Shown here piece by piece: positions 26,741 to 61,283 of a DNA stretch of 64,000 bases. The stretch is from Trypanosoma brucei (taxonomy: Eukaryota), in NCBI GenBank assembly GCA_000002445.1, contig CP000070.1:224001-288000 (forward strand). The letters run 5' to 3'. The notes under the pieces were generated by a model. The model had not been told where the DNA came from. It searched no databases and saw nothing but the letters and a program-made list of their open reading frames with translations. The first letter of the stretch is position 1. The number at the start of each line of letters is the position of its first letter. The position numbers were made by a program, and so were the translations under genes.

Positions 26741-26774
<34 letters not shown>

Positions 26775-41230: not shown

Positions 41231-43843
41231 ATGCACTGTTGTAAGGTTTTTTCGTTTCGCCTCACGGCAGGCCTTCTGCAGCGGCTGCCTATGCCGATGC
41301 CTCCGCCGCGACCAGGAGTAAGCGTCAACATGCAGCATGCGGTTGAAATAGAGGCGAAACGGCGGGTGGAGCTTGACGAGGCCACGCGCGCCCGGTACGT
41401 CGTTGTGAAGGAAGAAACTCGTGCTTCGGGGGACCGTGTCATTGGCATAGACCTCGGTACTACGAACAGCTGTATTTCATATATCGACAAGAAAACGAAC
41501 AGGCCAAAGATAATTCCATCTCCAACGGGGTCGTGGGTTTTTCCCACCGCAATTACGTTTGATAAAAGTCACAAGGTTCGCTTATATGGTGAAGAGGCCC
41601 GGGCCTGCGTACGGACGAGTGCGAGCGCGACGTTGTGCAGTGGAAAGCGCCTTATTGGCAGGGGTGTTGGTGAGTTGGGCCGCGTACAGTCCCAGCTCCA
41701 TAAGACAAATATGGTTACGCTTAACGAACGGGGAGAGGTGGCAGTAGAAATTATGGGTCGCACCTATACAGTAACCCATATCATAGCCATGTTCCTGCGC
41801 TATCTGAAAAAGGAGGCAGAAAAATTTCTCAAGGAACCGGTGAATGCCGTTGTAGTGAGTGTTCCTGCATTCTTCACCCCACAACAGAAGGTAGCGACGG
41901 AGGATGCTGCACTTGCCGCGGGTTTTGATGTCCTGGAGGTAATTGACGAGCCATCCGCCGCTTGTTTGGCTCATACTGTTTTGCAGCCTAGTAATGCCTC
42001 ATCAAGGGAACATCTATCGGGATCTAAGCGTATTGTACGTTCGCTGGTGTTTGATTTGGGCGGTGGCACACTGGACTGTGCTGTGATGGAAAATGATCGG
42101 CGACGGGGTACTTTTACACTTGTTGCGACACATGGTGACCCATTGCTTGGCGGCAATGATTGGGATGCTGTATTGTCTCAGCATTTTTCTGACCAATTTG
42201 AGCGTAAGTGGCGAGTACCTCTGGAGGACGCAGAAGGAAACGTGGGGCAAGGTGTAGCTACGTACCGCCAGCTCCTTCTTGAGGCTGAGAAGGCAAAGAT
42301 TCATTTTACGCACTCAACGGAGCCATATTATGGCTACAATCGTGCATTTCACTTTTCAGAGAAGCTTCGTGACATTGTTCCACTCGAGGCCACGCTCACG
42401 CTTGAGGAATACATTGAACTAACTCGGCCATTGAGGGTTCGCTGCGTGGAATGCCTCAACAAGCTTTTCGACCACACAAGCATACGTCCAGCAGACATTG
42501 ACAATGTACTACTTGTGGGGGCCATGACACGTGACCCCCCAATACGCCATCTTCTGACAGAGTACTTTGGTCGACATGTGGAATCTGAAGCCTCGTGTCC
42601 TGCCGACTACGCTGTAGCCATCGGTGCCGCCGTCCGCGGTGCCATGCTTCAGGGTGGATTTGATGACTTATTGTCGAACACACGATTTGTCACGGGGACC
42701 GCACAAGCCTTGAAGCAGGGTGGTTTCCTGCGTCGCTGCTGCAATCGCATTGGATCCTTAGTCAGTAGCAGCGTTAATCCAAATGCCATTGGCCAGCGCT
42801 GGCGCGGGCGCGCAAAAGGGCTCTCTGATGAAGAAATAGCTAACTATGCAAAGGAGCTTGTTGAGTTTGAGGCAGCGTGCGACCGCCGGCTGCTGCTTGA
42901 AAGAGCAGAGAACGACGCAAACTTCGTGATGCGGCGTGTAACAGCCGATTCGAGCAAGCGGCAAGGGATGCAGGAAAAACGTGTGCGGCAGCTAAGTGAA
43001 CAACTGAAGTTCTGGCAGTATATGGTGCACAACTTTCATGATCACGAAGACGAGTTACTACGAACGGTACGAGAATTGGAGCAAGCACTGGATGAATTGG
43101 AAGGGCTGGCAGAGGATAACACGTCGGGCCTCACAACCGCAGGGACAGTTGACTTCTCCTCAGTGACCCCTGTGAACCATTGCGAGGAAGAAGAGCGAGA
43201 CTGCAGCAGTGTTTCTGCAGCGTCAAGATCGGCACAGCTTAGGACGGCACATGGGGACGGAAAGCTGAAGGAGCGCACACAGGACGAGGAGGGGGAGAAA
43301 CCGAAAGGTCGTAAAATCATGAGGCGAGCTGTACCGCTGCCAAGGGCAAGTGCAGAAGCGCAGGAATTGGTGGAGGCGGGGCATCCCGCACTGCGAGGTG
43401 CCGATGTTTCCATGACAGAGTCCACGAGAAGTGCATTTTTCGAGGCACAGGTGGAGGAACGGGCATGGCGGGAGCCACCAACACCGCCTGGTGAGCATGG
43501 CTCATGGCAGGAGGTGAAGCGTGCGGTTGACGCTGGTGAGCCCGTTGGGAGCCCAATTGGTCTTCAGGAGTTACAGCGCCCAATGACACATGAAGAGATG
43601 CTACAGGTACTTAACAATATCGCACCCATTGATGATCCGGTGAGCGAGGAGCACGCCAGGAAGAGGGACCACTCCATTGATATGCGAACCATGACTATTG
43701 TTGAGGGTGCCGTAGATATGGTCGCGCTGCAGGAACTACTTGAGGAAGAAGCCAAACGGGCGGAGGAGCTTCAGCGTGCTCAGAAGAAGGGTGAGAAGCA
43801 ACTTGTAGCCGATTCATCAGCCAAACTGTTCGCGATGGACTAG
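41231..43843 (+). CDS. Atypical Hsp70-like protein: a recognisable Hsp70 nucleotide-binding domain followed by a ~400-aa non-canonical, coiled-coil/acidic C-terminal region. Possible N-terminal targeting sequence.
   Basis: VIGIDLGTTNSCISY (phosphate-1), KRLIGR, VVSVPAFFTPQQKVATEDAALAAGFDVLEVIDEPSAACLAH, VFDLGGGTLDCAVM (phosphate-2), DPLLGGNDWD, VLLVGAMTRDPPIRHLL. No canonical substrate-binding domain or EEVD follows. Confidence 0.75.
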   Translation: MHCCKVFSFRLTAGLLQRLPMPMPPPRPGVSVNMQHAVEIEAKRRVELDEATRARYVVVKEETRASGDRVIGIDLGTTNSCISYIDKKTNRPKIIPSPTGSWVFPTAITFDKSHKVRLYGEEARACVRTSASATLCSGKRLIGRGVGELGRVQSQLHKTNMVTLNERGEVAVEIMGRTYTVTHIIAMFLRYLKKEAEKFLKEPVNAVVVSVPAFFTPQQKVATEDAALAAGFDVLEVIDEPSAACLAHTVLQPSNASSREHLSGSKRIVRSLVFDLGGGTLDCAVMENDRRRGTFTLVATHGDPLLGGNDWDAVLSQHFSDQFERKWRVPLEDAEGNVGQGVATYRQLLLEAEKAKIHFTHSTEPYYGYNRAFHFSEKLRDIVPLEATLTLEEYIELTRPLRVRCVECLNKLFDHTSIRPADIDNVLLVGAMTRDPPIRHLLTEYFGRHVESEASCPADYAVAIGAAVRGAMLQGGFDDLLSNTRFVTGTAQALKQGGFLRRCCNRIGSLVSSSVNPNAIGQRWRGRAKGLSDEEIANYAKELVEFEAACDRRLLLERAENDANFVMRRVTADSSKRQGMQEKRVRQLSEQLKFWQYMVHNFHDHEDELLRTVRELEQALDELEGLAEDNTSGLTTAGTVDFSSVTPVNHCEEEERDCSSVSAASRSAQLRTAHGDGKLKERTQDEEGEKPKGRKIMRRAVPLPRASAEAQELVEAGHPALRGADVSMTESTRSAFFEAQVEERAWREPPTPPGEHGSWQEVKRAVDAGEPVGSPIGLQELQRPMTHEEMLQVLNNIAPIDDPVSEEHARKRDHSIDMRTMTIVEGAVDMVALQELLEEEAKRAEELQRAQKKGEKQLVADSSAKLFAMD

Positions 43844-44227: not shown

Positions 44228-44677
44228 ATGTCCGGTGAGAAGACGCACACCCTCAAGCAGGTGCAGACCTTCGGCAAGAAGAAAACGGCCATTGCGGTCG
44301 CCACGGTGACGAAGGCCCCGCAGTGTAACATTCGCATCAATGGTGTCCCCATATCTCAGATCCTTCCTGAGACGCTCCGTGCGAAGATCATGGAAGCTGT
44401 CAAGGTAGTGGGCGCTCGGTACTTTTCTCGCCTGCGCGTTGATGTGAGGGTTCGTGGCTCCGGTCAGGTCGCTCAGGCATACGCCGTCCGCCAGGCCATC
44501 GCGAAGGGTATCATCGCATATTACCAAAAGTACCACAATGAGATTGAGAAGGCTGCACTGAAAGACAAGTACTTGGAGTATGACAAGTTCCTCCTCATTG
44601 CGGATCCTCGCCGCTGCGAACCCAAAAAATGGGGCCGTCACTCTGCCCGTACGCGCTTCACAAAGTCGTACCGTTAA
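44228..44677 (+). CDS. RPS16: 40S ribosomal protein S16 (uS9), copy 1.
   Basis: MSGEKTHTLKQVQTFGKKKTAIAVATVTKAPQCNIRINGVPISQILPETLRAKIMEAVKVVGARYFSRLRVDVRVRGSGQVAQAYAVRQAIAKGIIAYYQKYHNEIEKAALKDKYLEYDKFLLIADPRRCEPKKWGRHSARTRFTKSYR is a full-length eukaryotic S16/uS9. Confidence 0.9.
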   Translation: MSGEKTHTLKQVQTFGKKKTAIAVATVTKAPQCNIRINGVPISQILPETLRAKIMEAVKVVGARYFSRLRVDVRVRGSGQVAQAYAVRQAIAKGIIAYYQKYHNEIEKAALKDKYLEYDKFLLIADPRRCEPKKWGRHSARTRFTKSYR

Positions 44678-44951
44678 TCGCCTGCTGTATGACAGCGTAT
44701 TGATGAGGTGGCGGCACGATATACACCCGGGTTGCGGAGTTGCCTTTATCAGTTGCATGTTTTTAATTTCTCTTTTAACTGTTTGTTTCACTATTAATTT
44801 CTTATCTGCTTTCACACCCTTCTGTAATGGGGTGGTCGTCGCTGCCGTGTGTTGCCACTTTCCTACACTGTCATTGGAAGTTGCGGTGATTTGCTTTCAC
44901 CCCTATTTGTTTGTTTTATTTTCAACTTTTTTGTTGGTTGCTAGCACCCAA

Positions 44952-45401
44952 ATGTCCGGTGAGAAGACGCACACCCTCAAGCAGGTGCAGACCTTCGGCA
45001 AGAAGAAAACGGCCATTGCGGTCGCCACGGTGACGAAGGCCCCGCAGTGTAACATTCGCATCAATGGTGTCCCCATATCTCAGATCCTTCCTGAGACGCT
45101 CCGTGCGAAGATCATGGAAGCTGTCAAGGTAGTGGGCGCTCGGTACTTTTCTCGCCTGCGCGTTGATGTGAGGGTTCGTGGCTCCGGTCAGGTCGCTCAG
45201 GCATACGCCGTCCGCCAGGCCATCGCGAAGGGTATCATCGCATATTACCAAAAGTACCACAATGAGATTGAGAAGGCTGCACTGAAAGACAAGTACTTGG
45301 AGTATGACAAGTTCCTCCTCATTGCGGATCCTCGCCGCTGCGAACCCAAAAAATGGGGCCGTCACTCTGCCCGTACGCGCTTCACGAAGTCGTACCGTTA
45401 A
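44952..45401 (+). CDS. RPS16: 40S ribosomal protein S16 (uS9), copy 2. Tandem duplicate with a CDS identical to copy 1 except for one synonymous site.
   Basis: Nucleotide identity to 44228..44677 over the whole CDS (ACA vs ACG Thr codon near the 3' end). The track ORF 44580..45401 is intergenic read-in fused to this copy. Confidence 0.9.
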   Translation: MSGEKTHTLKQVQTFGKKKTAIAVATVTKAPQCNIRINGVPISQILPETLRAKIMEAVKVVGARYFSRLRVDVRVRGSGQVAQAYAVRQAIAKGIIAYYQKYHNEIEKAALKDKYLEYDKFLLIADPRRCEPKKWGRHSARTRFTKSYR

Positions 45402-46034: not shown

Positions 46035-47519
46035 ATGTTTCGCGTTGTGTCGTTTGGTTCACTTATTCAGGACTCGCGTTTCTACTTCAAACGCAATGGC
46101 AGAGTGACAACAATGTATCCTGACGGCTACACCATCCAGAGACGCGTTTTTTCGAAGGGGAGGCGTACACGTGCCAAGATCACACTCCCCGGCGATGACG
46201 CTAAGAACGACTTGGGTGAGGTATACTACACCGCTACTATTAAGCGGAGGGACGATGGTGGTCCGTGTTTTCAAGTAGTACGAAGTGATAAGCCAGATGT
46301 TATCCACAGCGGTGATCAATGCTCCCCAGCGTGGCGCAAGGCCCTGGAAGCCGCAAAGCAGGACTTTCCCGATGCCCATAAAGAACTGGCGTATGTAGGA
46401 TCTGATGACAAGGGTTGTATGATCGTCCAGGGTGCCATTCTGTTCGGGCTTACTGCAAAGCCTGTGGTGGACGAATTGAACAAGATGGCGAAGGCATTAA
46501 GCATAAATGAGTGGTTGAGCACTATATCGGCGGACACCAAATCATTGGGAGACCCGATAGGGAGCCCCATTCCCTCTTCATCTTCTCAGCCACGCAAGCC
46601 AAAGCAACAACTCGTCACGAGTTCACAACCCTCTCAGTCGTCCTCGTGGAAGACAAGGGGAAAGAAAAGCGTGGAGGCTCCTGAGGACGACGATGTACCG
46701 TATTGTGTCCGACTTTCCAATAGTGAAGTTAGTGCCTCTGTACCTTGTTCCATTTGCGGATCGACAACGCCATTTTGTCCAATAACGGGAAAACGGCATG
46801 ACACAACGGGAAAGGGTGGAAGAGGGAGAAAGAAGTCTGAGTTGACGGAAGGGGCCGTTGCTCCAAGTGAGCCAACCGGGAAGAAAAGGGGAAGGAGGAA
46901 GAAGCAACCCCGTGATGATGATGGAGCGGAAGGCTCTCAAAATATGAGTGCTTCCAGTGGCGATGCGGTAAAGCGGCGGAGGACATCAGATGGAGCCACT
47001 GAAAGAGGCCCCTCCACCCGAGATGCGAAGCGACAAATGCTGCTGTTTGAAAACAACGGTAACGCAGTTGACGGGTCGTTGGCGAATGGAGAAGTACCCT
47101 ATGCACCGCCCCCAGTACTGTTTCGGCCACCGCTTTCACCACCACAGTCGAAAGAGGCCCTGCGCGTTCTGCAGCGTACGCTACAGGCGTTGTCGGTCGT
47201 TCGAACACCATTTACCTCTTTGTTACAACTGCGTGAACCAGGCGTCAAGAAGACCACACACGCCAGCAGCAAGTCTGACAAGGGAGCCGGCTCTCAGGCA
47301 AATATTATTTCTGTTAATGGTGCCGACACTGACGGAAATGATGCGGCTGCCGCTAGGAAACAAGCAGAAGAGGGAACGCAACACTTCCTTGACATCGTAG
47401 ACATGGACAAAGGCACCCGGGCGAGACGTTACATAAAATTCATGAAACTGTACACAAGTGAGAGGACCAAAATGGATCTGTTGAAAAAGGCTGCTAACAG
47501 CAACCCAGACTCATCGTAG
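46035..47519 (+). CDS. Hypothetical basic protein with AT-hook-like GRGRKK / KKRGRRKKQP motifs. Possibly nuclear or DNA-associated.
   Basis: Track ORF 45969..47519. The likely start is MFRVVSFG at 46035. The C-terminal half is rich in S/P/K/R with RGR-cored basic clusters. No catalytic domain recognised. Confidence 0.45.
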   Translation: MFRVVSFGSLIQDSRFYFKRNGRVTTMYPDGYTIQRRVFSKGRRTRAKITLPGDDAKNDLGEVYYTATIKRRDDGGPCFQVVRSDKPDVIHSGDQCSPAWRKALEAAKQDFPDAHKELAYVGSDDKGCMIVQGAILFGLTAKPVVDELNKMAKALSINEWLSTISADTKSLGDPIGSPIPSSSSQPRKPKQQLVTSSQPSQSSSWKTRGKKSVEAPEDDDVPYCVRLSNSEVSASVPCSICGSTTPFCPITGKRHDTTGKGGRGRKKSELTEGAVAPSEPTGKKRGRRKKQPRDDDGAEGSQNMSASSGDAVKRRRTSDGATERGPSTRDAKRQMLLFENNGNAVDGSLANGEVPYAPPPVLFRPPLSPPQSKEALRVLQRTLQALSVVRTPFTSLLQLREPGVKKTTHASSKSDKGAGSQANIISVNGADTDGNDAAAARKQAEEGTQHFLDIVDMDKGTRARRYIKFMKLYTSERTKMDLLKKAANSNPDSS

Positions 47520-48233
47520 GGGCACTTAGGCTCAGTTGGAGAAATATCTATCGCCGAAGTGACCACTTGCTTATGTGCGCGCGTGTGTGACGGAAAGCAT
47601 TTGCATTTTTTCCCACGCGATATCTTGCAAGGACCGACGCGAAGGTTTTCATCAGCGGGAGAACAGCACAACGTGGTTAATAGGTTTGGTGCTTGCACCA
47701 GGGAAGCAGTTGATGCTGTACCACAATAGTGGTTTAAGATCGGACAGTTAGCAAACGGAACGCTTCTCATTGACAGGTGAAGGTGGTGACGTTCGAGAAG
47801 GGTAATGTGTGGTGGCGGTGAATCCAACAGATGAAATAATTTAACAATTACTATTTTTAAAAAAAAAATATTTGCGTCTTTGTCTTGCGGTACCCCACCT
47901 TAGGTTCCGTGGGAGCGAGTTTCGCAGATGAGTGAGGTAGCAGCACTTCACGTTGCGCCACCTGCCATGTGCCATAAAATTCTTCGTTTGGAGGAATTGG
48001 TATGCAGACGGAATGCTAAACGGTGTGGGTGCGTCTAATATTTCAATGTTTCTTTCTTAAATCATGTCCTACTCTGCCTCTTCATGTTTTCGGTTGTTCT
48101 AGCTGAACCGCAGAAGTTTTTTTTTTTAAAATCACTGCGTAAAACCTTTGTACACCACTATTTTTCTAATTTATTTTCTTCTACTATTCCCTCTCCTCTC
48201 TTGTTTTTTTTTCTTTGACTGGGTAGCTGAGCT

Positions 48234-50921
48234 TTGATGGCATTGGCTCAGTCATGTCGTCACTTTGCTGCGACGACGTACCGACAGTCCAAAATTACAG
48301 ATCGCTTCCAGCTGTTAATAACTAAAAAGGAAATTGAATGTGACTACGTTGCGGTGGACGCCACTGCCCTCGTCGCAACGGGGTTACGTCTCGCAAAGAA
48401 CGTTACAACTGAGCAGCGTCGCCATAAGGAAGTGGCGCGTCATGTAGTACAGTCAATACAACAGTTGTTGAAGAAGGTGCGTTGCAAGAAGTCTCTTCTT
48501 ATAGCAATGGACGGAGCTGAGAATCTGCTCAAGGCGGATCGTACACGGGGTAGCAGTTTAACCCGAAAGGTGGAAAGTCGTCTGATGAGACTACCGGGAA
48601 CTCCACTTATGCAGGCAGTGGAGGAACGTATCGTTCGTATGATGCCAGAGCGGCAGATATTACCCGGTGAAGTGGTGTTTGCCGGCACCTGTGTTCAAGG
48701 GTGTGTCGAGCAGAAGATGTCCGCTTGGGCACTTGATCTGGCGTCCCGAGACACCTTTAACGGCAGCAGCGACTCACTGAATTTGATTGGGGCCTCTGAG
48801 TTGTACCTTAATGTGTTGGCGCTGTCGCCCTTCTATAACGTATCGAGTGTGGTGCAAAATAACGCAGATTTGCGACATATACGACTGCAGGATATTTTGG
48901 AGTGGCTAGAGCTAGATAAGAAGGCGAAGGAAGGGGAGAGTGTCACAATAGCCAAGATGAGAACGGATATTTTATTCCTCTTCATTATCGCTAACGGCGC
49001 CTCGGCAACTGAGCTGAATCCCATTCCTGCTGTTGGTTTCCATGAAATTGTTGATAGGTACATGAAGGTTCTCGCAGAAAACGGTGCTACGCCCCCTTCT
49101 CAAAGCGCGACCGCGAGCGCCCCAACTGCTTCAGCCAACGTCCCGGCCGCCCCAGCATTTCTTTTTGAGGATAGTCCGGGCAACACACTCCAACTGAATC
49201 TTCGCATGCTCTGTCGCATCATGCAGTTAGTGGCGCGTAAGGAGGCGCCAGCCCGTGTGGATGGTCTGTCAGAAGCCTACTTGGAGCACGCCTTACAAAC
49301 GCATGCAATGTTGTGTACTGGACAGGCACCCCAATGCACCTACTTGCCAGCAGCGGGTACAGGACAACTAGGCTCGACGGCGCCTAGCGCCGTGCAGCTC
49401 GCAGGTCATCTTGCTGCATTATGCGCATCCACAGCACAACGCAACGCACGGTGTACTTCTCTGCAGCCCTCGCTGGTAACACCAGAAAAGGGATCGTGTG
49501 AGGAAGACAGTTCGGCAACAAAGCTGCCGCCGACACCCCCAACTAGCGCGGTCGCACCAGTTGAAGACAAGCCGCTGACAGCAGCTGAATACACCATTCT
49601 CTGTCAGTCGCTTCCCGCAGCTGTGGAAGGATTGATTCATCAGTACGTAGGCGTAGCGCCTAAGCCGGATGTTGGGAAGATGATTACAACGGCGACCACG
49701 GAGGAAGCCTACCGCCTTGTTCGGGAAGTGCTTTCTTATGCGAACCCTCTTCGACCGCATAAGTGCTTATGCCTTTCCCCATCTTATTGCTGGCTCCAGA
49801 ATGAAAAGACGCAACTGTGGCGCTTCGAATATGTCGATATTGGTGTCAAAAGTCATGAACTGGGGACACGTCGGCAACTCAATGCTATGAAGGGTGTAAC
49901 GCTTGAAGTGAACATGTCCCGTGATGGTCCTTCGCATTTTGATCCACTGAGTGGGACGTGGGAGCCAATTGCCAATTTCCCGTGCGGAGCGGAGTGCGAA
50001 TATGACAAACATACTGAAGAATGCACATCTTCTCCTTCAGCTCCACAAACTGCAAAAGAGGTTGAAGGAGGACCAGTTAAGGCATCTTTAAAATTGCTGA
50101 CATGGAATGTCATGTTTGATCGTTACAGCGGCAAACCAACTCCTTTAGGTATGCCTGGTATAGATTGGTGCTCCCCCAAGAGGTATCCCGTCATTGCCAA
50201 GATCATAGAGGAGGAGGATGCGGATGTTGTTGGCATGCAAGAGGTGGAGCCTGTATTTTGGGAGTTCCTTTCCAAGCGGCCACTTATACGCCAAAGGTAC
50301 TACTTTTCGTGCGGTCATATGAGTCCAGCTATTGCCCCGTGGGGGGTGCTGATGTTGATACACCGTCGGCGTCTTCCAGTACAGAGCATCAACTATCTTA
50401 ACGTCCCTGCGTGGACTAATCATGTTTCTCTCATGCCGGTTGTGGGTCTGAAGATGGTGCACGGTACTGTACACATAGCTGCCGCACACTTACTCGCGCC
50501 ATACACGAAGTCCCACGAGAACGCTCGTACTTCCCAGGATACCGCGTTACGCCATCACATGACGAAGACGTTGGGTGGCGGGGATGTGGTAACTATGGGA
50601 GATTTCAACGACTGGCCTACAAATGAATTTATTATGCCACATGAATCACAGTACGTGGACTGTTGGCCCGTTTTGCACCCCAACAACCCTGGAAAGACTA
50701 TGGATGAAACAAACACCTTTTGTAAACTGAAAGTGGAGGAAATGTTTTTTGGCCGTTCCGACAAGGTGTTTCTGCGAAGCAGGCGGCTTGTGCCAGTCGA
50801 AGCTCATCTCGTCGGAACACGGAGTGTAAACGATGAGAACAACAACGCCGACGCACCCGCATATTTGTTCCCATCCGATCACTACGGCGTAAGTATAACG
50901 TTTTCATTGAAGTTACCGTAA
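48234..50921 (+). CDS. Two-nuclease-domain protein: an N-terminal 5'-3' exonuclease/PIN-like motif plus a C-terminal endonuclease/exonuclease/phosphatase (EEP) domain. Architecture resembles the kinetoplastid RNA-editing exoUases KREX1/KREX2.
   Basis: N-terminal CDYVAVDATALV ... SLLIAMDGAENLL resembles the FEN1/XPG/XRN-type acidic strands (VAIDAS..., LDMNG...). C-terminal EEP motifs LKLLTWNVMFDRYSG, VVGMQEVEPVFWEF, TMGDFNDWP, FPSDHYGVSITFSL. Basic N-terminus MMALAQSCRHFAATTYRQ. Confidence 0.5.
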   Translation: MMALAQSCRHFAATTYRQSKITDRFQLLITKKEIECDYVAVDATALVATGLRLAKNVTTEQRRHKEVARHVVQSIQQLLKKVRCKKSLLIAMDGAENLLKADRTRGSSLTRKVESRLMRLPGTPLMQAVEERIVRMMPERQILPGEVVFAGTCVQGCVEQKMSAWALDLASRDTFNGSSDSLNLIGASELYLNVLALSPFYNVSSVVQNNADLRHIRLQDILEWLELDKKAKEGESVTIAKMRTDILFLFIIANGASATELNPIPAVGFHEIVDRYMKVLAENGATPPSQSATASAPTASANVPAAPAFLFEDSPGNTLQLNLRMLCRIMQLVARKEAPARVDGLSEAYLEHALQTHAMLCTGQAPQCTYLPAAGTGQLGSTAPSAVQLAGHLAALCASTAQRNARCTSLQPSLVTPEKGSCEEDSSATKLPPTPPTSAVAPVEDKPLTAAEYTILCQSLPAAVEGLIHQYVGVAPKPDVGKMITTATTEEAYRLVREVLSYANPLRPHKCLCLSPSYCWLQNEKTQLWRFEYVDIGVKSHELGTRRQLNAMKGVTLEVNMSRDGPSHFDPLSGTWEPIANFPCGAECEYDKHTEECTSSPSAPQTAKEVEGGPVKASLKLLTWNVMFDRYSGKPTPLGMPGIDWCSPKRYPVIAKIIEEEDADVVGMQEVEPVFWEFLSKRPLIRQRYYFSCGHMSPAIAPWGVLMLIHRRRLPVQSINYLNVPAWTNHVSLMPVVGLKMVHGTVHIAAAHLLAPYTKSHENARTSQDTALRHHMTKTLGGGDVVTMGDFNDWPTNEFIMPHESQYVDCWPVLHPNNPGKTMDETNTFCKLKVEEMFFGRSDKVFLRSRRLVPVEAHLVGTRSVNDENNNADAPAYLFPSDHYGVSITFSLKLP

Positions 50922-51341: not shown

Positions 51342-52490
51342 GTGTTGGGGCAACTGTGCCTTTCTTTATTTTCTGGCGCAGCAGTCCCATACCTCCCCTG
51401 TTCACGAATGATGCAACGTTGCGGCACTTCACTGAGTCGCCTGTGCTTCCGCCGCTTATTGCGTACACCACTCCTTGTTTATTCTATACCACCAATTCGT
51501 GATGTGCCATCGGGGATAGCACACTGCCCATTGAGCTGCAGCATGCGTATGGTCACTTCTTCGAATGATGACGAGTTTGTGTTTGATCCTACTCTCAGTA
51601 TCCAGAAGGACGCCGCGATACACACGGCCAAGAAAAGCTTCGAAACTATTGTACTCGAGTATGTTCCTGCGCACGCTCCCGAGGAGGCGAGGCAGAAGGT
51701 GAAGTCGTACCTGACCCAGCACCCAATCGACATACTTATAACGCAACCTAAGGTGCAAATCACTCACTTGGAAGACGCAGAGTCGGGGGCAGAGACAAAA
51801 GTTTCATTGAGTCCGTGTGACCTTCCCGAGGCGCTGCAGCAGGCAAGGGAGCGTGGGATGAATCTCGTTCAAATGGGGGCGCGTGGAGATGTGGCGTACT
51901 GCAGGATCCGCCGTGAGTCCGCCCGCATTCTGAGTCTCATACACACCGAACTTGAGGCCCTTCGCGAGCAGGAGGAGAAACAACAGGGGAAAGGACGCGG
52001 TGGGGTGCAGGCAGCGGCTAAAATGGGTGAGCTCATTGACCACACATTCCGTGACGCAGTGGATGCCCATTTTGTTGGGTGGCGAAGCAAGAAAATAGTG
52101 GAAGATATCAGGAGGCGGCACCCGGTGAAGTTGACTATCAAGGAGTTTCAATCACCCGAGTGTGCTATCGGTAAGCTTAGGGAGATGTGCCAGGCGATGC
52201 AGCATTACGCACAGGAGAAGGTCATATACCACCACTTCACCAGCATCGTGGCAAATGATCGCGAAGCAAGTATTACTTTTGCCCCTGCGCTGCCCATGGC
52301 CAAGAGTGATTCGTGGAAACATATAAAGTACCCGGGCGAGAAGGAATGGACTAATGCTTTGAGGCGAATGGAAGATGCGTGTCGTAAAAGTGGGCGTTAT
52401 GGCACGTATGCAAAAAGCAACAAACTCAAGTTGCGCTCCTTGGGTCAGACATCATATCGTGTAGACAAATACGGGAGGAAGATGGATTAA
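51342..52490 (+). CDS. Hypothetical protein (382 aa). The N-terminus is basic/amphipathic (possible mitochondrial presequence). An alternative start, MMQRCG, lies at 51408.
   Basis: Uninterrupted ORF on the polycistron strand, with polypyrimidine tract and AG upstream. No recognised domain. Confidence 0.45.
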   Translation: MLGQLCLSLFSGAAVPYLPCSRMMQRCGTSLSRLCFRRLLRTPLLVYSIPPIRDVPSGIAHCPLSCSMRMVTSSNDDEFVFDPTLSIQKDAAIHTAKKSFETIVLEYVPAHAPEEARQKVKSYLTQHPIDILITQPKVQITHLEDAESGAETKVSLSPCDLPEALQQARERGMNLVQMGARGDVAYCRIRRESARILSLIHTELEALREQEEKQQGKGRGGVQAAAKMGELIDHTFRDAVDAHFVGWRSKKIVEDIRRRHPVKLTIKEFQSPECAIGKLREMCQAMQHYAQEKVIYHHFTSIVANDREASITFAPALPMAKSDSWKHIKYPGEKEWTNALRRMEDACRKSGRYGTYAKSNKLKLRSLGQTSYRVDKYGRKMD

Positions 52491-53534: not shown

Positions 53535-56500
53535 ATGCCACCGAGGAAGAGAAGCAAGCGGCCACGAGACCAAGAACAGTCCGCTGAAGCTGAGACAGCA
53601 ACGACAGGAATCGAATCACTGGTGGGTCGTGAAGGGGACCCCATTACACATGATTTCATTGACGAATGCAACGGTGATGAAAGTGATTCGGATAACCAGA
53701 TATTAGCAGCTTCATTCAAGAAGCGGACGAAACGCCGAGCTGAAAAGATGGTGGGCAACGGGAACGACACTGTGCTGACTGATGGTGACGATGATGAGTG
53801 TATCGCTGAGCAGGAAGACAAGGTAACGAAAGCGCTACAGGCACGACTGCGGTGTGGAATGCAGCGCTTTGCAACGTCGGCAACGAATCAGGGGGGACTA
53901 GTCAAACCCTCCGGGCCACCGAGTTCAGTTGCAGCCGCCGCTCAACGTAGTACGACCACGAAAAGGGATAATCTCACTAACAGCCGGCGTCAGGAGATTT
54001 TTGTTGAGCACGTGAAGCACTTTATGCGATACACGGTGATTGCCGATAAGGCCCGGAAGTTGGTTTCGCTCGAAGAACGGCCGAAGGAGGATCCAGATGT
54101 TGGGAACGACCGCGTAGAACTACTGCGGATTCACGTGTCCTTGCCATGCGTATGGCGCTACATACTGCACGAGTGGGAGCGAGTGGAAGAAGCGTCTAAG
54201 AAATCATCGTCGTTGGCAGCATCCCGTGATGCCTCAGTGAGCAGACTCGTGAGTTTATTCATGAAGTGCCTTAACTCTTTAGATGGCATTCACGCGCTTC
54301 TATTCATTGCTTGTGCAGCTTGCCGTGCGTTGGATTTGACGGGCGGCGTAACGAGCGTTCTATTGCACTTGTTGCTGGAGACTGGTCGCGTGGAGGAGGA
54401 CCGCCTTTTGAAATCAGATAGTGGGGAGCTCGTGTACAAGGCGATCGAAGAAATTGATAAGGAAATGCATAGTCGGTTTGGGGGCAGCGACTGTTGTTAT
54501 TTCCAGACTCACTCGTACCTTTTGTTGTTAATATGGTACACCCAAAGGGATGTGTCCGACAACGGAGGTCCTCTGAAAATGAGCCACCAAGTCGTCCTTT
54601 CACAGGCATTTGTGAAGGCGACATCGCCTTACCAAACGGCGCGCACGCGAAGGGGAAGTAAAGCAGCGGCTTCTGTTGCTCCCTCTGAGGAATCAGGGAA
54701 GAGAAAGCCGCGCGGCCGGCGCTGCGCGGGAAGCAGCGAAGACGGTGCCGCGTTATCAGGTTTTGATCGGCATGCGACTTTGGTGACGGAGGTGCAGGAG
54801 CATGAGACGAGGTGGGCGGAAGACAGTTCCAAATTCCTTTTCAGTTTGTACGCTCTTCAAAATGCCAGCGGTAGTGCCTCCTACGGCATGAAGAAACTGG
54901 CGCTCCGGGAGGTCATGGGAGCCGTGTTCCTCTTCCACCGCGTCCTTTCTGAAAGCGGAGTGAATGACTTCCTATTGGAATCAAAGGAAAGCCGCATAAG
55001 GGAGTTACATGAATGGTCGTTGTCAAAAGGCTTTGTCACGCCCCCTCTCACACATGGTGGTGAGAGCAGCAACAACGGTACCACTGTTAACAGCTTTGCT
55101 TCAACTGATGTTGGAGAGGATGGTCTGAACGTAATGAGTATGGCCGGAAGGACCTACCGTGAATGTACTGACGTGGAGAGAAGTTTTCCACGCGTGGCGA
55201 ATGCGCGAGCTATGCTTCAACACGTCACGCAGATTGCTGCCGCTAATTACCGTGGGAACACACGTGCAGTAGGGGAGGGGTTCCCCCATGAGTATATTCG
55301 GGCACGTCTGCATCCTCACCAAGTAGAGAGCCTCGCTTACATGCTTGAACGGGAAACGCGTGGTCTGGCACAGTACGTTGAACTTCGTGGCTTCTTTGAA
55401 GCTACCTCAGGCTTACCCTCAGAAGTTGCGGATCGAAGTGCAGGAAGAGGGAGCAGAGAGTTTTCACTCTTCTACTCTTCCATGTCCTCTGAGTGGTTCA
55501 TTGTGCGCAGTGATTCTTTGTCTGCTCGCTTCGCTCGTCGAGCACTGCATTGCGGTTTTTTATGTGATGAAATGGGATTGGGTAAAACGCTGGTAGTGCT
55601 CTCCCTGTGTGCAACCGCAAAGAAGCGTGCCATTGAGTTGGAGGAAACAGAAGTACCGACGGTCACCACATTAGGCACCGTGAAGGGGTCTAATGTGGGT
55701 GCCGTCAACAAGGCATTTGCAGAGAGTGATGCCGGCACGGCGGGCGCAGGTGAGGATGAACCGATCTATTTGTGGCGACACATCCGGGTTCGTAAAACAG
55801 GTGCACCGTGGTCAGATATGTTGGAGGTTTTATACGGCAGCTTACCGCAGCCGGTGTACCTTCCCACACCAAAGCCGCTTCCGAAAACGACCCTTGTGGT
55901 GGTGCCGCTCTCACTATTGATTCAGTGGGTGTCGGAAATTGATCGCTTTTATCCACTTGCTCGATACATATTGTTTCACGGCCCATCGCGGCAGCGCTAC
56001 ACCTATGAAGACTTTTGCTCTGCCGATTTTGTGATCACCACGTACGAAACCGTCGGTGCCCACCTGCGAGTGGAGACAGATGCAGCGTTTCGTCTTCTAA
56101 CTATGACGCTGCCGTATATGGAACATAAAGATGCTTCCTTGGCGCAGTGGGATACCTTTTGCCGCGGATGTAACGAACGTCGGGCCCGGGCAGCGTCAGC
56201 GTCCCAAGGGGTAAATGACTGCGATGGATCCGCTGATGTCTTCGATAGCATTCTTAGCCTGTTTGAATCGGCCCGGAGGCAAGTAGTTCTGGAGGCGGAA
56301 GGGGCACCGCCCGGTCCGACACTTGACTTTGTTTCTCAGTGGGACAAAACGTTTCGAGAGTTCCTGCGGAGTGACGTTCTTTACCTGACGGATTTCGTCT
56401 TTGAACGCATTATACTTGACGAATCGCAGAAGTGCTCGAAGACCTCCAGGCTTCAGTACCTCCAGGCTCGCCGACGATGGGTTGTGTCGGGAACACCCAT

Positions 56501-58373
56501 CAACAACAACGACGTCAACTCTCTTCAACCTTTATTTAAGTTCCTGTGGGCCGAGCTTAGTCCATCGTATTCTGTGTCTCCACTAAGCGCGTTTTATTGC
56601 TCCTCTTACGACAAACAGCGGCACATGATCTCCGCCCTCAACGCATTCAGAAGTTCGAGGAAGATGGCACGATATGCGATTAACAGCTTTTACGTCGGCC
56701 GTCACTCAAAGTCGTCCCCAAGTGACACACGACATGTCCTGACCCAACCGGCAATAAGGAAGCCACTGTGCATGTGTAGGCTCTGCAATCCGTTTACTAA
56801 GCAAACAGTTTATCCGAAATCCCCTGTGCTCACTTTGAAGGATGCATTGTATCGTCGTGTAACGTCCGCTGCAAGCGAGGAAGAAACCGAGGGATTCATT
56901 TCCGACCGTGGTGGTTTGTTCCGGTCGTGGCGGTTTTCTGTGCCCTTGACACATCTGATGGTCCGTCATGAGAAAACGGAGGAGCTGCAGAGGGCTCTGC
57001 AACTTTCTCCTGTCACCGAAGCGCATGTGGAGGTTCCACTACTGGACGGCGAGCGCTTTCTCTATGATTACGCGGGAGACGTTGTAGCTCGGGGCGTTGC
57101 ACTTTTGCAACGCCAGGGGTTGGTGGGAAACTGTTCAGCGAAGCTGCTGTCATGGGTCTGCTTACTTGGCCGTATGGCGTTGCATCCTTCAACAGCCTTC
57201 GCTGACGTCCGAAACAGTGATCAAGCACTGTATGTGCAGTCCCATCAGAAAAATGAGCAAGTCGCTTCCAACTTCCTGAGTTCAGTTGTTTCCGTAACAC
57301 CTAACGACGCGTTGGCGTACGCTAGGAAGCTTATCGCGAACCGGCTTAATACTACGGGAACCAGGAAAGGTCGGGGTGAAACCAATGTGTTGGTTCCCCC
57401 GGAGACGACGGTGGAGACACTGCGCAAACTGACGCTTGATCCCCCTGAAGTTCCAGAGTGCGCCATATGTCTCGATACTATGCTCCACCCAACCTTACTA
57501 AGCTGCTTCCATCTATTTTGTAAGGAGTGTCTGTTTGCGACGATACAGGTGGCGAGACCAACACTTTCAAACGAAACTACCGCCCGCTGCCCTCATTGTA
57601 GAAACCCCAAAAGCATGAGGGAAAAAATGATGGTAATTCAGGTGGAAAATACGCAAGTAAGCACGCTGGGTGCACTCCAAGATGAGGGCATGGCGCCCCC
57701 CAACGGTGAAAACGTTTCTCACGAAGAACTGAAGCGACGGGTTGATGCTGTTGGGCGCGGTAGTCGAATTCCAAGGCTGATTCAACTGCTTGAAGACATA
57801 TGGGATGAGGCCCCAGACGACAACGTGTTGGTGTTCTCAAAGGTGCCAGCGATCCTGCAAATGGGAGAGGCAGCCCTAAAGGAGGCTGGCTACCAAAACG
57901 TACACGTGATCGATAATCACGTAACTTTGGTTCAGCGGAAGAAAATTTTCGCCCAGCTCCACGCCAATGCAGCGACCACCGCCTCAGCAACAGGGTCGGC
58001 CTCAGGAAGCACGCCTTCGGGTAACAACCGAGGACACGTGCTGTTTCTCTCTTCCCGGGTTGCATGCTCAGGGCTCAATTTGGTCTTTGCGAACCGCTTG
58101 ATTTTTATGGAACCCAACCTCAACCCAGCCCAGCACCAGCAGGCAGTTGGTCGCATTGACCGTTGCGGACAGTTGAAGAGAACATATGTGTATGTAATGT
58201 ATGCACCTCGCACTATTGAGGAGAGGATCATGAATCGGACCTCAGCTCTGCTGCAGGAGGCAAGTCAAGGTACTTTTCCTGACGTAGCAACAGGTCGAGG
58301 GGCTCCGGCAGGAAATACCTCTTCAATGGGACAAAGCGAGTTAATTACTTTACTTCAAGCGCAACAAGCGTGA
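53535..58373 (+). CDS. SNF2-family ATPase with a RING finger inserted between the helicase lobes (Rad5/Rad16/HLTF-like) and a ~570-aa N-terminal extension.
   Basis: LHPHQVESLAYMLERE (SNF2_N start), GFLCDEMGLGKTL (motif I), RIILDESQKCSKTS...RWVVSGTPINN (motifs II/III; DESQ in place of DEAH/DEGH), CAICLDTMLHPTLLSCFHLFCKECL...CPHCR (C3HC4 RING), VLVFSKV...LFLSSRVACSGLNLVFANRLIFMEPNLNPAQHQQAVGRIDRCGQ (helicase C, motif VI). Confidence 0.85.
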   Translation: MPPRKRSKRPRDQEQSAEAETATTGIESLVGREGDPITHDFIDECNGDESDSDNQILAASFKKRTKRRAEKMVGNGNDTVLTDGDDDECIAEQEDKVTKALQARLRCGMQRFATSATNQGGLVKPSGPPSSVAAAAQRSTTTKRDNLTNSRRQEIFVEHVKHFMRYTVIADKARKLVSLEERPKEDPDVGNDRVELLRIHVSLPCVWRYILHEWERVEEASKKSSSLAASRDASVSRLVSLFMKCLNSLDGIHALLFIACAACRALDLTGGVTSVLLHLLLETGRVEEDRLLKSDSGELVYKAIEEIDKEMHSRFGGSDCCYFQTHSYLLLLIWYTQRDVSDNGGPLKMSHQVVLSQAFVKATSPYQTARTRRGSKAAASVAPSEESGKRKPRGRRCAGSSEDGAALSGFDRHATLVTEVQEHETRWAEDSSKFLFSLYALQNASGSASYGMKKLALREVMGAVFLFHRVLSESGVNDFLLESKESRIRELHEWSLSKGFVTPPLTHGGESSNNGTTVNSFASTDVGEDGLNVMSMAGRTYRECTDVERSFPRVANARAMLQHVTQIAAANYRGNTRAVGEGFPHEYIRARLHPHQVESLAYMLERETRGLAQYVELRGFFEATSGLPSEVADRSAGRGSREFSLFYSSMSSEWFIVRSDSLSARFARRALHCGFLCDEMGLGKTLVVLSLCATAKKRAIELEETEVPTVTTLGTVKGSNVGAVNKAFAESDAGTAGAGEDEPIYLWRHIRVRKTGAPWSDMLEVLYGSLPQPVYLPTPKPLPKTTLVVVPLSLLIQWVSEIDRFYPLARYILFHGPSRQRYTYEDFCSADFVITTYETVGAHLRVETDAAFRLLTMTLPYMEHKDASLAQWDTFCRGCNERRARAASASQGVNDCDGSADVFDSILSLFESARRQVVLEAEGAPPGPTLDFVSQWDKTFREFLRSDVLYLTDFVFERIILDESQKCSKTSRLQYLQARRRWVVSGTPINNNDVNSLQPLFKFLWAELSPSYSVSPLSAFYCSSYDKQRHMISALNAFRSSRKMARYAINSFYVGRHSKSSPSDTRHVLTQPAIRKPLCMCRLCNPFTKQTVYPKSPVLTLKDALYRRVTSAASEEETEGFISDRGGLFRSWRFSVPLTHLMVRHEKTEELQRALQLSPVTEAHVEVPLLDGERFLYDYAGDVVARGVALLQRQGLVGNCSAKLLSWVCLLGRMALHPSTAFADVRNSDQALYVQSHQKNEQVASNFLSSVVSVTPNDALAYARKLIANRLNTTGTRKGRGETNVLVPPETTVETLRKLTLDPPEVPECAICLDTMLHPTLLSCFHLFCKECLFATIQVARPTLSNETTARCPHCRNPKSMREKMMVIQVENTQVSTLGALQDEGMAPPNGENVSHEELKRRVDAVGRGSRIPRLIQLLEDIWDEAPDDNVLVFSKVPAILQMGEAALKEAGYQNVHVIDNHVTLVQRKKIFAQLHANAATTASATGSASGSTPSGNNRGHVLFLSSRVACSGLNLVFANRLIFMEPNLNPAQHQQAVGRIDRCGQLKRTYVYVMYAPRTIEERIMNRTSALLQEASQGTFPDVATGRGAPAGNTSSMGQSELITLLQAQQA

Positions 58374-58844
58374 TGCTGGCATTTTTTTTGCTGTTTCTGA
58401 ATTGACCTCGGGATCGCCGACGATCACACGACCCTCCACCCTCCACCCTCCAAGCCCAAACCCATTTTTTGAGTCGTTTCTTTTTTTTTTTTTTAAATAA
58501 CTATTTTATTTCCTCTCCCTTATATTTGTGACGCCCAGGATATTTTGTTTCTGTTTGGAGACGATTGTTGTGAGTTCTAGAACTGCACCCTGAAAAAGGA
58601 TTAAAAAAAAAGGGGGCGATGGGATGTTTGCCATTTTACGTTTTTTTGTTTTTCTTTTTATGTCGTGCATTCTTTTAACGTTTGTTGCCGTCTCCATTTT
58701 GTCTTTGTTTATTATTATTATTTTTTTTTAGGGTTGATTCAGGGGTGGTGGGTGAGGAGGCCCTTGGCGGGGAATTTATCTCTTTCTCTTTTCTTCTGTT
58801 GACTTTGTTTTTCCTTTTATCCACAGGGTAGCGATGAGGCAAGG

Positions 58845-58849
58845 ATGTC

Positions 58850-58884
<35 letters not shown>
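58845..58884. repeat. (TA)n microsatellite.
   Basis: catacatatatatatatatatatatatatatattta. Confidence 0.85.
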
Positions 58885-58890
<6 letters not shown>

Positions 58891-61258
58891 GAAGGAATGT
58901 ACAAACATGAAACAAATAAGCGGATATTTAAATATATAAGTATATATGTACTTGTGTAATGTGAGTGAGTAAATAAATAAGTGAATGAGTCTGCGTGTGT
59001 TTCGAATATTGACGAAGTGAATCTATGAACTAAGTTATGTATTCTTTTCCCCCCTTTCCAGTATCCCTTGTATTTTCGGGCGCTGATGTTCCTTTTGTTC
59101 TGTTCTGTTGTTGTTCTTTTCTAGAGACTTCGTTCCAAAGTACGAAAATGCCTCGTTGGTCTCTTTTCTTGTTCTTATTCTGTCTGTGAGATGCATTGCT
59201 TCATCTTAAATTTTCTGGCTTCACCTTTCGTTTTTTTTTATTGTTTTCGCCTTACTACCGCTTCCGTGACCATCGAGAGGCGCACGTTGCTTTTGTTATG
59301 GTGCCTACGTATGCGTTGCCCATATTCCTTCACATTACATTACATTACATCACTGTTGTGAGCTCAATAACGTACTCAAGGAGACGGCACCACAACGAAC
59401 GAGAGCGAAATGAATAAATGGAGGACAGGTGGCGAAAAAGAAAAAGTAAGAAAAAAGAGGAAAATAATAAAAGAGAAAGAAATAGAGAAGTAGAGAAAAC
59501 AATTACAATAATAAAGCAAAGCATATATCATGACGGTAACTACAATGTCTCGTGCTTTCCCCCACACATCAACGGCCCCCAAAATCTCGTCTTCCAATCA
59601 GTTCTTTCTTTCCTTTTTTGTTTTGTTGTTGTCGGCATTGGCTTTGCTTTATCAACCTATATCTATATCTATCCATATTTATATATTTTTATGATTTGAA
59701 GTGACGCAACCTGCCGGTTCGCTTTATGTTAACTGAGTGGGTGGGAACAAAAGAAATTGTAAATAGCTAATTTTGTTTTCCTTTAATTGGGACAATTTTA
59801 GCGAGTACATGAGATCTTTTCCCCTTCCGTTTTTTTGCCTCTATTGTTTATGACACAAACACAAACACACACACATATGCTCAAAAAGGGGGGAAAAAGA
59901 GAGGAATACTTGTGTATGCACAAAGAAGAAAGAAAAAAAAAGAAGAATGAAATATAGAAGGGAGCTATGGGAAGAGCAATTTTCATTGTGGTTATTTCTA
60001 CTACTATTATGAGGAACGGTAACATTGTTATTATTTAGCTTTAGTGTGCGACTATGTTACCCCATTTTGTGTTTGTTTGTTTAATTGTTATGTTCGTTCT
60101 TATGGATATGTGTAACAAACACATCATCTTTATCTTCTATGCGCCGGGCAGGAATGATCTTGTGAATGGCGTCTTTTGCTTTTTTTTGTATGTGATGGAA
60201 AGAGAGAGTTCAAGAAGGGGGAAGGGGAGTAAAAAAAAATAAATAAAAGAAAACATCATGCTTGCATGCATAAGCATTAATGTATGTCTTTGTGCGTAGT
60301 ACATCGTTGCTCCAGAACACAGAAATGCAATATCTCACCAAAGTAAGGAGAGAGGAGACATAATGCGTGATACTATTTTTTTCTTTTGAAAAAGATGAAA
60401 AAGAGATAAAGCAACAGGGGATGAAAGGTTTAAAATTATGCTTTGCTAATCGGTTACTATTATCACTACGATTATCATTACAATTACTGTTGTCATTTTT
60501 TTTTTTTAAGTTTTAATAAAAAGAAAAGCAACAATACCATCATCGTTGCGTCGTAGAGGATACACACTTCTTTGCTACATCCCCTGTTATTTTTCCATTT
60601 TAAAACAAAATTTGTGGTGCTGACTAATGGAAGTTAAGTGGAGCGCTCATGCACCAACGAAGAAGGACGAGGAGAGGAGGGAAATGCGGAAAGGAAAAGG
60701 AAAAAAGAAAGATCGAAACCTTCAAAGAGAGTCTAAAGGGGTGGCGTGCCGCTTACATAAAAGTAACTCCATACAAGACGTACACAAATATACATATACC
60801 TGTTCATCCTTTGATTTTCCCTTTCTTCCTCTTCTTTTTCATTTCGGCCTTGAAGCGACATTAATACTTAAAGATCCCTTGTTTTACATCTCACAGTTTA
60901 AGATTTGTGAAGAGTGTGCATGTTTTGCTCGGCAATAAATGGGAAAATAAAGACGTGAAATATATGTATGTATGTATATATATGTATTTCGTCCTCTCTC
61001 ACACCCTCGTGTGTTCCACACGCTCAAGGGCGAACTTTTGTTGATTCTTTTTATTATTTTTCTCTTGAATGCTCTTTTACTTCCTCATAAGTTTTTATTA
61101 GGAAGTTTAATTGTTTATTACCCTTTAAAAAAAAATACGTATTTTAATTTGTTTTTGCTGTTTTTTGCGAAAAAAAAATTCACAAAAATTTCGTAAAATA
61201 AGTTGTCTTTTTCCTCCTTTTCTTTTCTTTTTTCTTTTAAATTCGTTCTTCCCGCTGT

Positions 61259-61283
61259 TTATATATATATATATATATATATG
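61259..61283. repeat. (TA)n microsatellite.
   Basis: tatatatatatatatatatatatatg. Confidence 0.85.

What the first reader, a model, noticed from the sequence alone, without database searches (positions are those of the whole stretch)
48234..50921. Protein combining a 5'-3' exonuclease-like N-terminal motif with a C-terminal EEP nuclease domain: the KREX1/KREX2 (RNA-editing exoUase) architecture
The C-terminal ~330 aa carries the full EEP motif set (WNVMFD, GMQEVE, GDFNDWP, PSDHYGVS). The N-terminus has FEN1/XPG/XRN-like acidic strands (VAVDATAL, LIAMDGAE) and a basic, presequence-like start. This domain combination is characteristic of the kinetoplastid editosome U-specific exoribonucleases. 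If it is an editosome exoUase, the integrity of its EEP catalytic residues is of interest, since some lineages carry inactive KREX2. If it is not, this would be an undescribed dual-nuclease fusion.
Basis: partly seen in the sequence, partly recalled or inferred. Interest (0 to 1): 0.5.

Follow-up and report, generated by a model that had tools for sequence, protein, structure and literature searches.

The report
Trypanosome RNA-editing exonuclease KREX1 gene
This gene is the already well-known KREX1 (TbMP100) enzyme of the Trypanosoma brucei group, which trims surplus uridines from mitochondrial mRNAs during RNA editing; it is intact and ordinary.

The parts
48160..48231 (+). Upstream polypyrimidine tract (48160-48219) followed by AG dinucleotides at 48225-26 and 48230-31. 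This is a candidate trans-splice acceptor region for the KREX1 mRNA.
   Evidence: Read directly from the sequence. Its role is inferred from general knowledge of trypanosomatid trans-splicing signals and was not tested.
48237..50921 (+). KREX1 (REX1/TbMP100) coding sequence: 894 codons plus the stop codon.
   Evidence: ORF; first ATG at 48237; identical protein called in T. equiperdum OVI contig CZPT02000704.1; MP100-annotated orthologues at 67-76% identity in other Trypanosoma species.
48237..48302 (+). Basic, acid-free, disordered N-terminal segment (aa 1-22), a putative mitochondrial presequence.
   Evidence: Composition; pLDDT <50 for aa 1-15. The targeting function is inferred from the known mitochondrial location of the editosome and was not tested.
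48309..48812 (+). XRN-like catalytic-core segment with sequence-level homology (aa 25-192). It carries D41, D92, K99, PGT120-122, E158, K160 and E188.
   Evidence: hhalign of the KREX1 N-terminal alignment against the XRN alignment: probability 92.7%, E 4.2e-7, aligned to Xrn1 residues 18-211. Pfam XRN_N. The N-terminal profile's only PDB matches are Xrn1 and Rat1, all weak.
48309..49967 (+). Full extent of the XRN-like fold in the predicted structure (aa ~25-577). It is interrupted by low-complexity disordered inserts at aa 284-305 (49086-49151) and aa 407-443 (49455-49565).
49977..50078 (+). Disordered linker between the two domains (aa 581-614).
   Evidence: pLDDT <50; poorly conserved and variable in length among orthologues.
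50085..50909 (+). EEP (endonuclease/exonuclease/phosphatase) domain, the U-specific 3'-5' exoribonuclease module (aa 617-891). Codon positions of the catalytic residues: N624 (50106-08), E669 (50241-43), H751 (50487-89), D789 (50601-03), N791 (50607-09), D842 (50760-62), D881-H882 (50877-82). Specificity pocket: T825, G839, S841.

Best explanation
The ORF is the nuclear gene for KREX1 (REX1, TbMP100; orthologue of T. brucei Tb927.7.1070). KREX1 is the U-specific 3'-5' exoribonuclease found only in the deletion-type RNA editing catalytic complex (RECC1) of the trypanosome mitochondrion. After import, it associates with the KREN1/KREPB8 endonuclease module. When KREN1 cleaves a pre-mRNA at a deletion site specified by a guide RNA, the C-terminal EEP domain removes the unpaired 3' uridines from the 5' cleavage fragment by Mg2+-dependent phosphodiester hydrolysis, and an editing ligase then reseals the RNA. 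Shown here: gene identity, domain architecture, and an intact EEP catalytic set (N624, E669, H751, D789/N791, D842, D881/H882). Taken from the literature: exoUase activity, RECC1 specificity and the knockdown phenotype. Inferred: the N-terminal XRN-like domain keeps only part of the XRN acidic cluster and lacks the 5'-phosphate-gripping arginines, so it most likely serves RNA or protein binding or as a scaffold rather than as a canonical processive 5'-3' exonuclease.
For: Named homologues are MP100. In the NJ tree the window protein lies inside the MP100 clade, separate from Bodo and Lotmaria MP99. The identical protein is on record in T. equiperdum OVI, and the window DNA is 99.9% identical to that contig over 11.5 kb. 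The neighbours match FYRP (Tb927.7.1060) and the 4839-bp TbRAD5 (Tb927.7.1090), with KREX1 = Tb927.7.1070. The published REX1_Tbrucei pocket T825/G839/S841 is found at exactly those positions, whereas REX2 has R834/G848/A850. The EEP domain passes Pfam's gathering score, and its catalytic residues are invariant. XRN-like N-domain. [quoted passage not shown]
Against: Nothing contradicts the identification. Four caveats apply. The exact source species within the T. brucei group is not determined: there are 9 mismatches and 3 gaps against T. equiperdum OVI over 11.5 kb. If the source is a dyskinetoplastic lineage, the enzyme may have little or no substrate. The EEP part of the structure model is only moderately confident, with several loops at pLDDT <50.
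Confidence: 0.96

Rival explanations
1. It is the paralogue KREX2 (REX2/TbMP99), the exoUase-like subunit common to all three RECCs and bound to KREPA2 and KREL1, rather than KREX1.
For: KREX2 has the same two-domain architecture and belongs to the same family (PMC1525001). Family members at 31-38% identity exist.
Against: The MP99-named proteins (Bodo saltans P0039 and the Lotmaria cluster of P0053) form a separate clade. The pocket residues are the REX1 set T825/G839/S841, not the REX2 set R834/G848/A850. Synteny is with chromosome 7 genes Tb927.7.1060 and Tb927.7.1090, whereas KREX2 is Tb927.10.3570.
Confidence: 0.01
2. It is a non-editing EEP enzyme (of the TDP2, CCR4/Nocturnin/PDE12 or sphingomyelinase type) with an unrelated N-terminal extension.
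Against: These matches have only 15-20% identity and reflect the shared fold. All close homologues are kinetoplastid MP100 proteins. The N-terminal region is a bona fide XRN-like domain, which none of those families has.
Confidence: 0.01
3. It is KREX1 by descent but functionally redundant or decaying, because the source could be a dyskinetoplastic member of the T. brucei group (T. equiperdum or T. evansi) in which RNA editing has lost most or all of its substrates.
For: The exact protein sequence is on record only in T. equiperdum OVI. The nearest other sequence, P0001, differs at 8 residues.
Against: The ORF is complete, with no frameshift or stop codon. All catalytic and family-invariant residues are intact. 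Seven of the eight differences from P0001 fall in disordered inserts. The window is not identical to the OVI contig, so the source is not established.
Confidence: 0.02

Closest known systems
T. brucei KREX1 / REX1 / TbMP100 (Tb927.7.1070, UniProt Q57WU3)
   Same: Same length class (894 aa, ~99 kDa). Same residue numbering at the published pocket residues T825/G839/S841. Same chromosomal neighbours. Same XRN-like plus EEP architecture. All EEP catalytic residues present.
   Different: Nothing of substance. A reference TREU927 sequence could not be retrieved for a residue-by-residue comparison. The nearest retrievable non-identical sequence, P0001, differs at 8 of 894 positions.
KREX2 / REX2 / TbMP99 (Tb927.10.3570)
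   Same: A paralogue with the same XRN-like N-terminal domain and, in Trypanosoma and Bodo, a C-terminal EEP domain with the same catalytic residues. It shares the same partial acidic cluster in the XRN-like domain.
   Different: Identity is only about 28-38%. It forms a separate clade. Its pocket residues differ. It is a common subunit of all three RECCs and is dispensable in T. brucei, and it lacks the EEP domain in Leishmania-type species (PMC3305318; the 671-aa Lotmaria MP99).
XRN family 5'-3' exoribonucleases (Xrn1, Rat1/Xrn2)
   Different: The equivalents of E176 (C156) and D206 (none) are not acidic. R100/R101 correspond to S106/S107. The D291 equivalent could not be placed. There is no detectable sequence similarity to the CR2 half. 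No 5'-3' activity has been demonstrated. The domain is fused to an EEP domain, which XRNs lack.
TDP2 and other Mg2+-dependent EEP nucleases (ExoIII/APE1, CCR4/Nocturnin)
   Same: Four-layer alpha/beta EEP fold and the full N-E-H-D-N-D-DH catalytic constellation.
   Different: Identity is 15-20%. The substrate is RNA 3' oligo(U). The small polar pocket (T825/G839/S841) replaces the bulky hydrophobic pocket of APE1/ExoIII (PMC1525001).

Membership tests
KREX1 (REX1/TbMP100) orthologue group | Closest relatives are KREX1/MP100 proteins, and it groups with them rather than with KREX2/MP99 | tested here: met
   MP100-named hits at 67-76% identity in other Trypanosoma species and ~40% in Leishmania. 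The NJ tree separates the MP100 and MP99 clades.
KREX1 (REX1/TbMP100) orthologue group | Conserved chromosomal position (Tb927.7.1070, between Tb927.7.1060 and Tb927.7.1090) | tested here: met
   The upstream 494-aa FYR-domain ORF corresponds to FYRP, Tb927.7.1060. The downstream 4839-bp SNF2/RING ORF corresponds to TbRAD5, Tb927.7.1090.
KREX1 (REX1/TbMP100) orthologue group | REX1-type EEP pocket residues Thr825, Gly839, Ser841 (REX2 has Arg834, Gly848, Ala850) | tested here: met
   T825, G839 and S841 are found at exactly those positions (against PMC1525001). T/S-G-S is conserved across the KREX1 clade (with S841 replaced by A in one member, P0015) and differs in the KREX2 clade.
KREX1 (REX1/TbMP100) orthologue group | U-specific 3'-5' exoribonuclease activity and exclusive association with KREN1-type (RECC1) editosomes | not testable with these tools
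   Biochemical property; known for T. brucei KREX1 from the literature (PMC3305318, PMC12936278).
KREX1 (REX1/TbMP100) orthologue group | Mitochondrial targeting | tested here: inconclusive
   The N-terminus is basic, acid-free and disordered. No targeting predictor was available.
EEP superfamily (Pfam PF03372), catalytically competent | Profile match above the gathering score, plus the Asn, Glu, Asp-x-Asn, Asp and Asp-His catalytic residues | tested here: met
   32 bits against a cutoff of 24.5. N624, E669, D789, N791, D842, D881 and H882, plus the motif III residue H751, are present and invariant. Structural matches to TDP2, ExoIII and CNOT6L.
XRN 5'-3' exoribonuclease family (Pfam PF03159 XRN_N) | Profile match at or above Pfam's gathering score | tested here: not met
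   21.0-21.1 bits against a cutoff of 22.9 for this protein. 18 of 19 orthologues match at E<0.01, best 7.9e-7. hhalign probability 92.7%.
XRN 5'-3' exoribonuclease family (Pfam PF03159 XRN_N) | XRN catalytic-core fold | tested here: met
XRN 5'-3' exoribonuclease family (Pfam PF03159 XRN_N) | Complete set of seven acidic metal-binding residues (Xrn1 D35, D86, E176, E178, D206, D208, D291) and the 5'-phosphate pocket (K93, Q97, R100, R101) | tested here: not met
   Present: D41, D92, E158, E188 and K99. Absent: the E176 equivalent is C156, D206 has no acidic equivalent, and R100/R101 correspond to S106/S107. The D291 equivalent was not aligned. KREX1 is therefore XRN-like in fold but should not be filed as a canonical XRN enzyme.

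The most novel reading that the evidence does not exclude
The XRN-like domain of the KREX proteins is neither a canonical 5'-3' exonuclease nor a decayed relic. It is a conserved variant site. Four of the seven XRN acidic residues, plus K99, K160, D244 and R104, are kept in almost every KREX1 and KREX2 examined, including MP99 forms that lost the EEP domain. That site could carry a function not yet assigned in the editosome. One possibility is binding a metal and the 5'-monophosphate of the 3' cleavage fragment, to position the nick for U removal and ligation. Another is a weak second nuclease activity.
Probability: 0.2. Interest if true: 0.55.

Novelty: already known. Interest (0 to 1): 0.1.

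Why it matters
KREX1 is an essential, parasite-specific enzyme of mitochondrial U-deletion editing in the agents of sleeping sickness, nagana and related animal diseases. Finding it here only confirms a known annotation. The gene is intact, with a complete EEP active site. The one point of residual interest concerns its large N-terminal XRN-like domain. That domain's function has been listed as unknown since 2003-2006 and was re-predicted as 5'-3' exonuclease activity in 2024. Across the whole KREX family it carries a strictly conserved but incomplete XRN active site. This argues against simple decay and against a canonical XRN mechanism, and it identifies specific residues to mutate: D41, D92, E158, E188, K99 and K160.

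Tried and rejected
1. A direct phmmer search of the full protein against PDB sequences gave only weak TDP2 hits (E 0.035). This was not informative for the N-terminal domain, so profile and structure searches replaced it.

2. The N-terminal profile against the PDB gave only XRN hits, all at non-significant E-values of 0.25-1.9. I used this as a lead and then confirmed it by hhalign and fold search.

3. hhalign of KREX1 aa 306-580 against the XRN CR2 region found no similarity (probability 0.06%). The apparent resemblance of 'SPSYCW' to the XRN 'CPSWSWYYP' motif is therefore unsupported and was dropped.

4. The equivalent of Xrn1 D291 could not be placed. Manual alignment suggests A255/S256, with a conserved E/D at 259 nearby; this remains unresolved.

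5. KREX2 identity, a non-editing EEP enzyme and a pseudogene were each considered and rejected (see the rival explanations).

6. PMC2673068 (Ernst et al. 2009, on the differential functions of the two exoUases) is not held in the library. Rogers et al. 2007 was not looked up.

7. Scans of the whole window for tRNAs, Rfam families and tandem repeats found nothing.

Both matched PDB chain 6q8y_z exactly, and the other XRN sequences used were those printed by the tool.

Full report
OBSERVATION. The tool uses the bacterial code, so it starts the ORF at a TTG. The first ATG follows immediately at 48237. The eukaryotic coding sequence is therefore 48237..50921, giving 894 residues and 98.7 kDa. A long polypyrimidine tract (48160-48219) and two AG dinucleotides lie just upstream. 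This is the usual look of a trypanosomatid trans-splice acceptor region; that reading is an inference from general knowledge.

DOMAINS BY PROFILE. Pfam finds Exo_endo_phos over residues 621-882 at E 1.4e-7 and 32 bits, above the gathering score of 24.5. It finds XRN_N over residues 31-95 at E 2.4e-4 and 21 bits, just below the gathering score of 22.9. When 19 orthologues were scanned individually, all 19 matched Exo_endo_phos and 18 matched XRN_N at E<0.01, with a best value of 7.9e-7.

IDENTITY. The homologue search returned a 99%-identical protein from a public read-set assembly. It also returned 'putative exonuclease' proteins from T. congolense (76%) and T. vivax (72%). Further hits included 'RNA-editing complex protein MP100' from T. 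grayi, T. rangeli, T. cruzi, T. conorhini and T. theileri (67-71%), and from Leishmania major and L. mexicana (about 40%). MP100 is the older name of KREX1/REX1, gene Tb927.7.1070; MP99 is KREX2, gene Tb927.10.3570 (PMC12936278).

An exhaustive HMMER search of 1.84 billion representative proteins showed a second tier of full-length relatives at 31-38% identity, and a tier matching only the N-terminal domain. Source names for these include 'RNA editing 3' exouridylylase MP99' from Bodo saltans and 'MP99' from Lotmaria passim, the latter only 671 aa with no EEP domain. A neighbour-joining tree of 52 family members puts the window protein inside the MP100 clade, well separated from the MP99 clade.

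Three independent checks confirm the assignment:
- The exact 894-aa protein is called on contig CZPT02000704.1 of assembly GCA_001457755.2, which is Trypanosoma equiperdum OVI (PMC5278650). The window is 99.9% identical to that contig over 11.5 kb, with 9 mismatches and 3 gaps. The source is therefore a member of the T. brucei group, and I cannot say which one.
- The modelling paper on the REX proteins gives the nucleotide pocket of REX1_Tbrucei as Thr825, Gly839 and Ser841, and that of REX2_Tbrucei as Arg834, Gly848 and Ala850 (PMC1525001). The window protein has T825, G839 and S841 at exactly those numbers.
- The upstream gene (46035-47519, 494 aa, with a Pfam FYRC match) fits FYRP, Tb927.7.1060, a 54-kDa protein with an N-terminal FYR domain (PMC4646403). 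The gene two places downstream (53535-58373) is exactly 4839 bp and has SNF2, RING and Helicase_C domains, as described for TbRAD5, Tb927.7.1090 (bioRxiv 10.1101/543975). Tb927.7.1070 lies between them.

N-TERMINAL DOMAIN. A profile of the first 278 residues of ten orthologues matched only XRN-family chains in the PDB, weakly (E 0.25-1.9). To test this properly I obtained authentic XRN sequences from the PDB alignments and ran profile-profile comparisons. KREX1 residues 25-192 align to Xrn1 residues 18-211 with probability 92.7% and E 4.2e-7.

STATE OF THE XRN-LIKE ACTIVE SITE. The hhalign alignment gives these equivalences, KREX1 to Xrn1:
- Kept: D41-D35, D92-D86, K99-K93, R104-R98, PGT120-122 to PGT135-137, E158-E178, K160-K180, G185-G204 and E188-D208.
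- Lost: Xrn1 E176 corresponds to C156, D206 has no acidic counterpart, and the arginines R100 and R101 correspond to S106 and S107.

D35, D86, E176, E178, D206, D208 and D291 are invariant in my three-sequence XRN alignment. From my own knowledge of the Xrn1 and Rat1 crystal structures, these are the seven metal-binding acidic residues. D208 is a metal-chelating residue whose alanine mutant is inactive (PMC11982291). R100 and R101 contact the 5'-terminal phosphate, and even Arg-to-Lys changes impair degradation (PMC12972898).

Across the family table, D41, D92, E158, K160, E/D188, D244, G254 and R104 are almost universal in both paralogue clades. They are present even in the MP99 proteins that have lost the EEP domain. 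Position 156 is never acidic (C, P, S, A, L, M or W), and neither is position 186. The site is thus a conserved partial version of the XRN site, neither canonical nor decayed. I could not place the D291 equivalent.

WHAT IS KNOWN. [quoted passage not shown] A structure-based annotation study again predicted PF03159 for KREX1 (Q57WU3) and KREX2 (Q38BP2) and called for wet-lab tests (bioRxiv 10.1101/2023.01.18.524644, also held as PMC10830352). [quoted passage not shown] RECC1 uniquely contains KREX1 and catalyses deletion editing, and no complete atomic structure of a RECC exists (PMC12936278).

MECHANISM. The most likely mechanism, with high confidence for the EEP part, runs as follows. The protein is imported into the mitochondrion and joins the KREN1/KREPB8 module of RECC1. 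After guide-RNA-directed cleavage at a deletion site, the EEP domain removes the unpaired 3' uridines of the 5' fragment by Mg2+-dependent hydrolysis. The small polar pocket T825/G839/S841 accommodates the flipped-out uridine, as proposed in PMC1525001. A ligase then reseals the RNA. Gene identity and active-site integrity are shown here; activity and complex membership are taken from the literature. My inference for the XRN-like domain is an RNA-binding, protein-binding or scaffolding role. The loss of two or three acidic residues and both phosphate-gripping arginines argues against a canonical XRN mechanism. The strict conservation of the remaining site residues suggests that the pocket still binds something.

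RIVALS. KREX2, a non-editing EEP enzyme and a decaying copy in a dyskinetoplastic lineage were each considered and are each contradicted by the data above (details in the Rival explanations section).

VERDICT. The gene, its architecture and its function are already known, so interest is low. The only residual question, already recognised in the field, is the role of the XRN-like domain. This analysis adds the family-wide conservation pattern of its incomplete active site.

Noticed in passing
window 51408-52490 (+): The 360-aa gene immediately downstream of KREX1, at the position of Tb927.7.1080, has no significant Pfam domain. It has a weak sub-threshold match to IF3_N, the N-terminal domain of translation initiation factor IF-3 (E 0.0032, 18 bits against a cutoff of 26.9). 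It could be a divergent mitochondrial IF3-like protein.
   Followed up: no
window ~6900-11800: Apparent divergent strand-switch region. The only ORFs of 220 aa or more on the - strand are at 6947-7675 and 9001-9903, and every large ORF from 11767 onwards is on the + strand. GC skew changes sign at about 8 kb. The 6947-7675 ORF contains an RNase-H-like string (SYRAECLALEIGL) but has no Pfam hit. It may be a retroelement relic.
   Followed up: partly
window 20300-26700 and 58400-61400: Long stretches without any ORF of 220 aa or more and with low G+C (0.38 at 22-24 kb, about 0.40 at 58-62 kb). The short ORFs there are low-complexity. No tRNA, Rfam family or strong tandem repeat was found anywhere in the window.
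   Followed up: partly
window 46035-47519 and 53535-58373 (+): The flanking genes match published T. brucei chromosome 7 genes. The first is FYRP, an ISWI-complex FYR-domain protein (Tb927.7.1060). The second is TbRAD5, an SNF2/RING helicase (Tb927.7.1090, exactly 4839 bp).
   Followed up: yes
window 13819-45401 (+): Other genes in the same + strand run (a presumed polycistronic unit): glucosidase II beta subunit-like (13819-15264), polycystin-like cation channel (15478-16962), protein kinase (17677-20268), NMD3 (26695-28407), DnaJC11-like (33177-35513), OGFr_N-like (39265-40218), HSP70-like (41231-43843), and a Ribosomal_S9 protein with an N-terminal extension that may be mitoribosomal (44580-45401). 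Large ORFs at 28764-31682, 35946-38027 and 61385-63604 have no Pfam match.
   Followed up: partly
KREX family proteins P0034, P0042, P0041 and P0050: A few family members deviate at otherwise universal XRN-like site positions: D92 is G in P0034 and P0042, and E158 is A in P0041 and K in P0050. These are unnamed metagenome or read-set assemblies. Whether the deviations are real lineage-specific losses or assembly errors is unknown.
   Followed up: no
window 48237-50921 compared with P0001: The closest non-identical sequence differs at 8 residues. Seven lie in low-confidence or disordered inserts or in the linker (302, 307, 397, 426, 439, 596, 611), and one is N817D in the EEP domain. This fits strain-level polymorphism concentrated in unconstrained regions.
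   Followed up: yes
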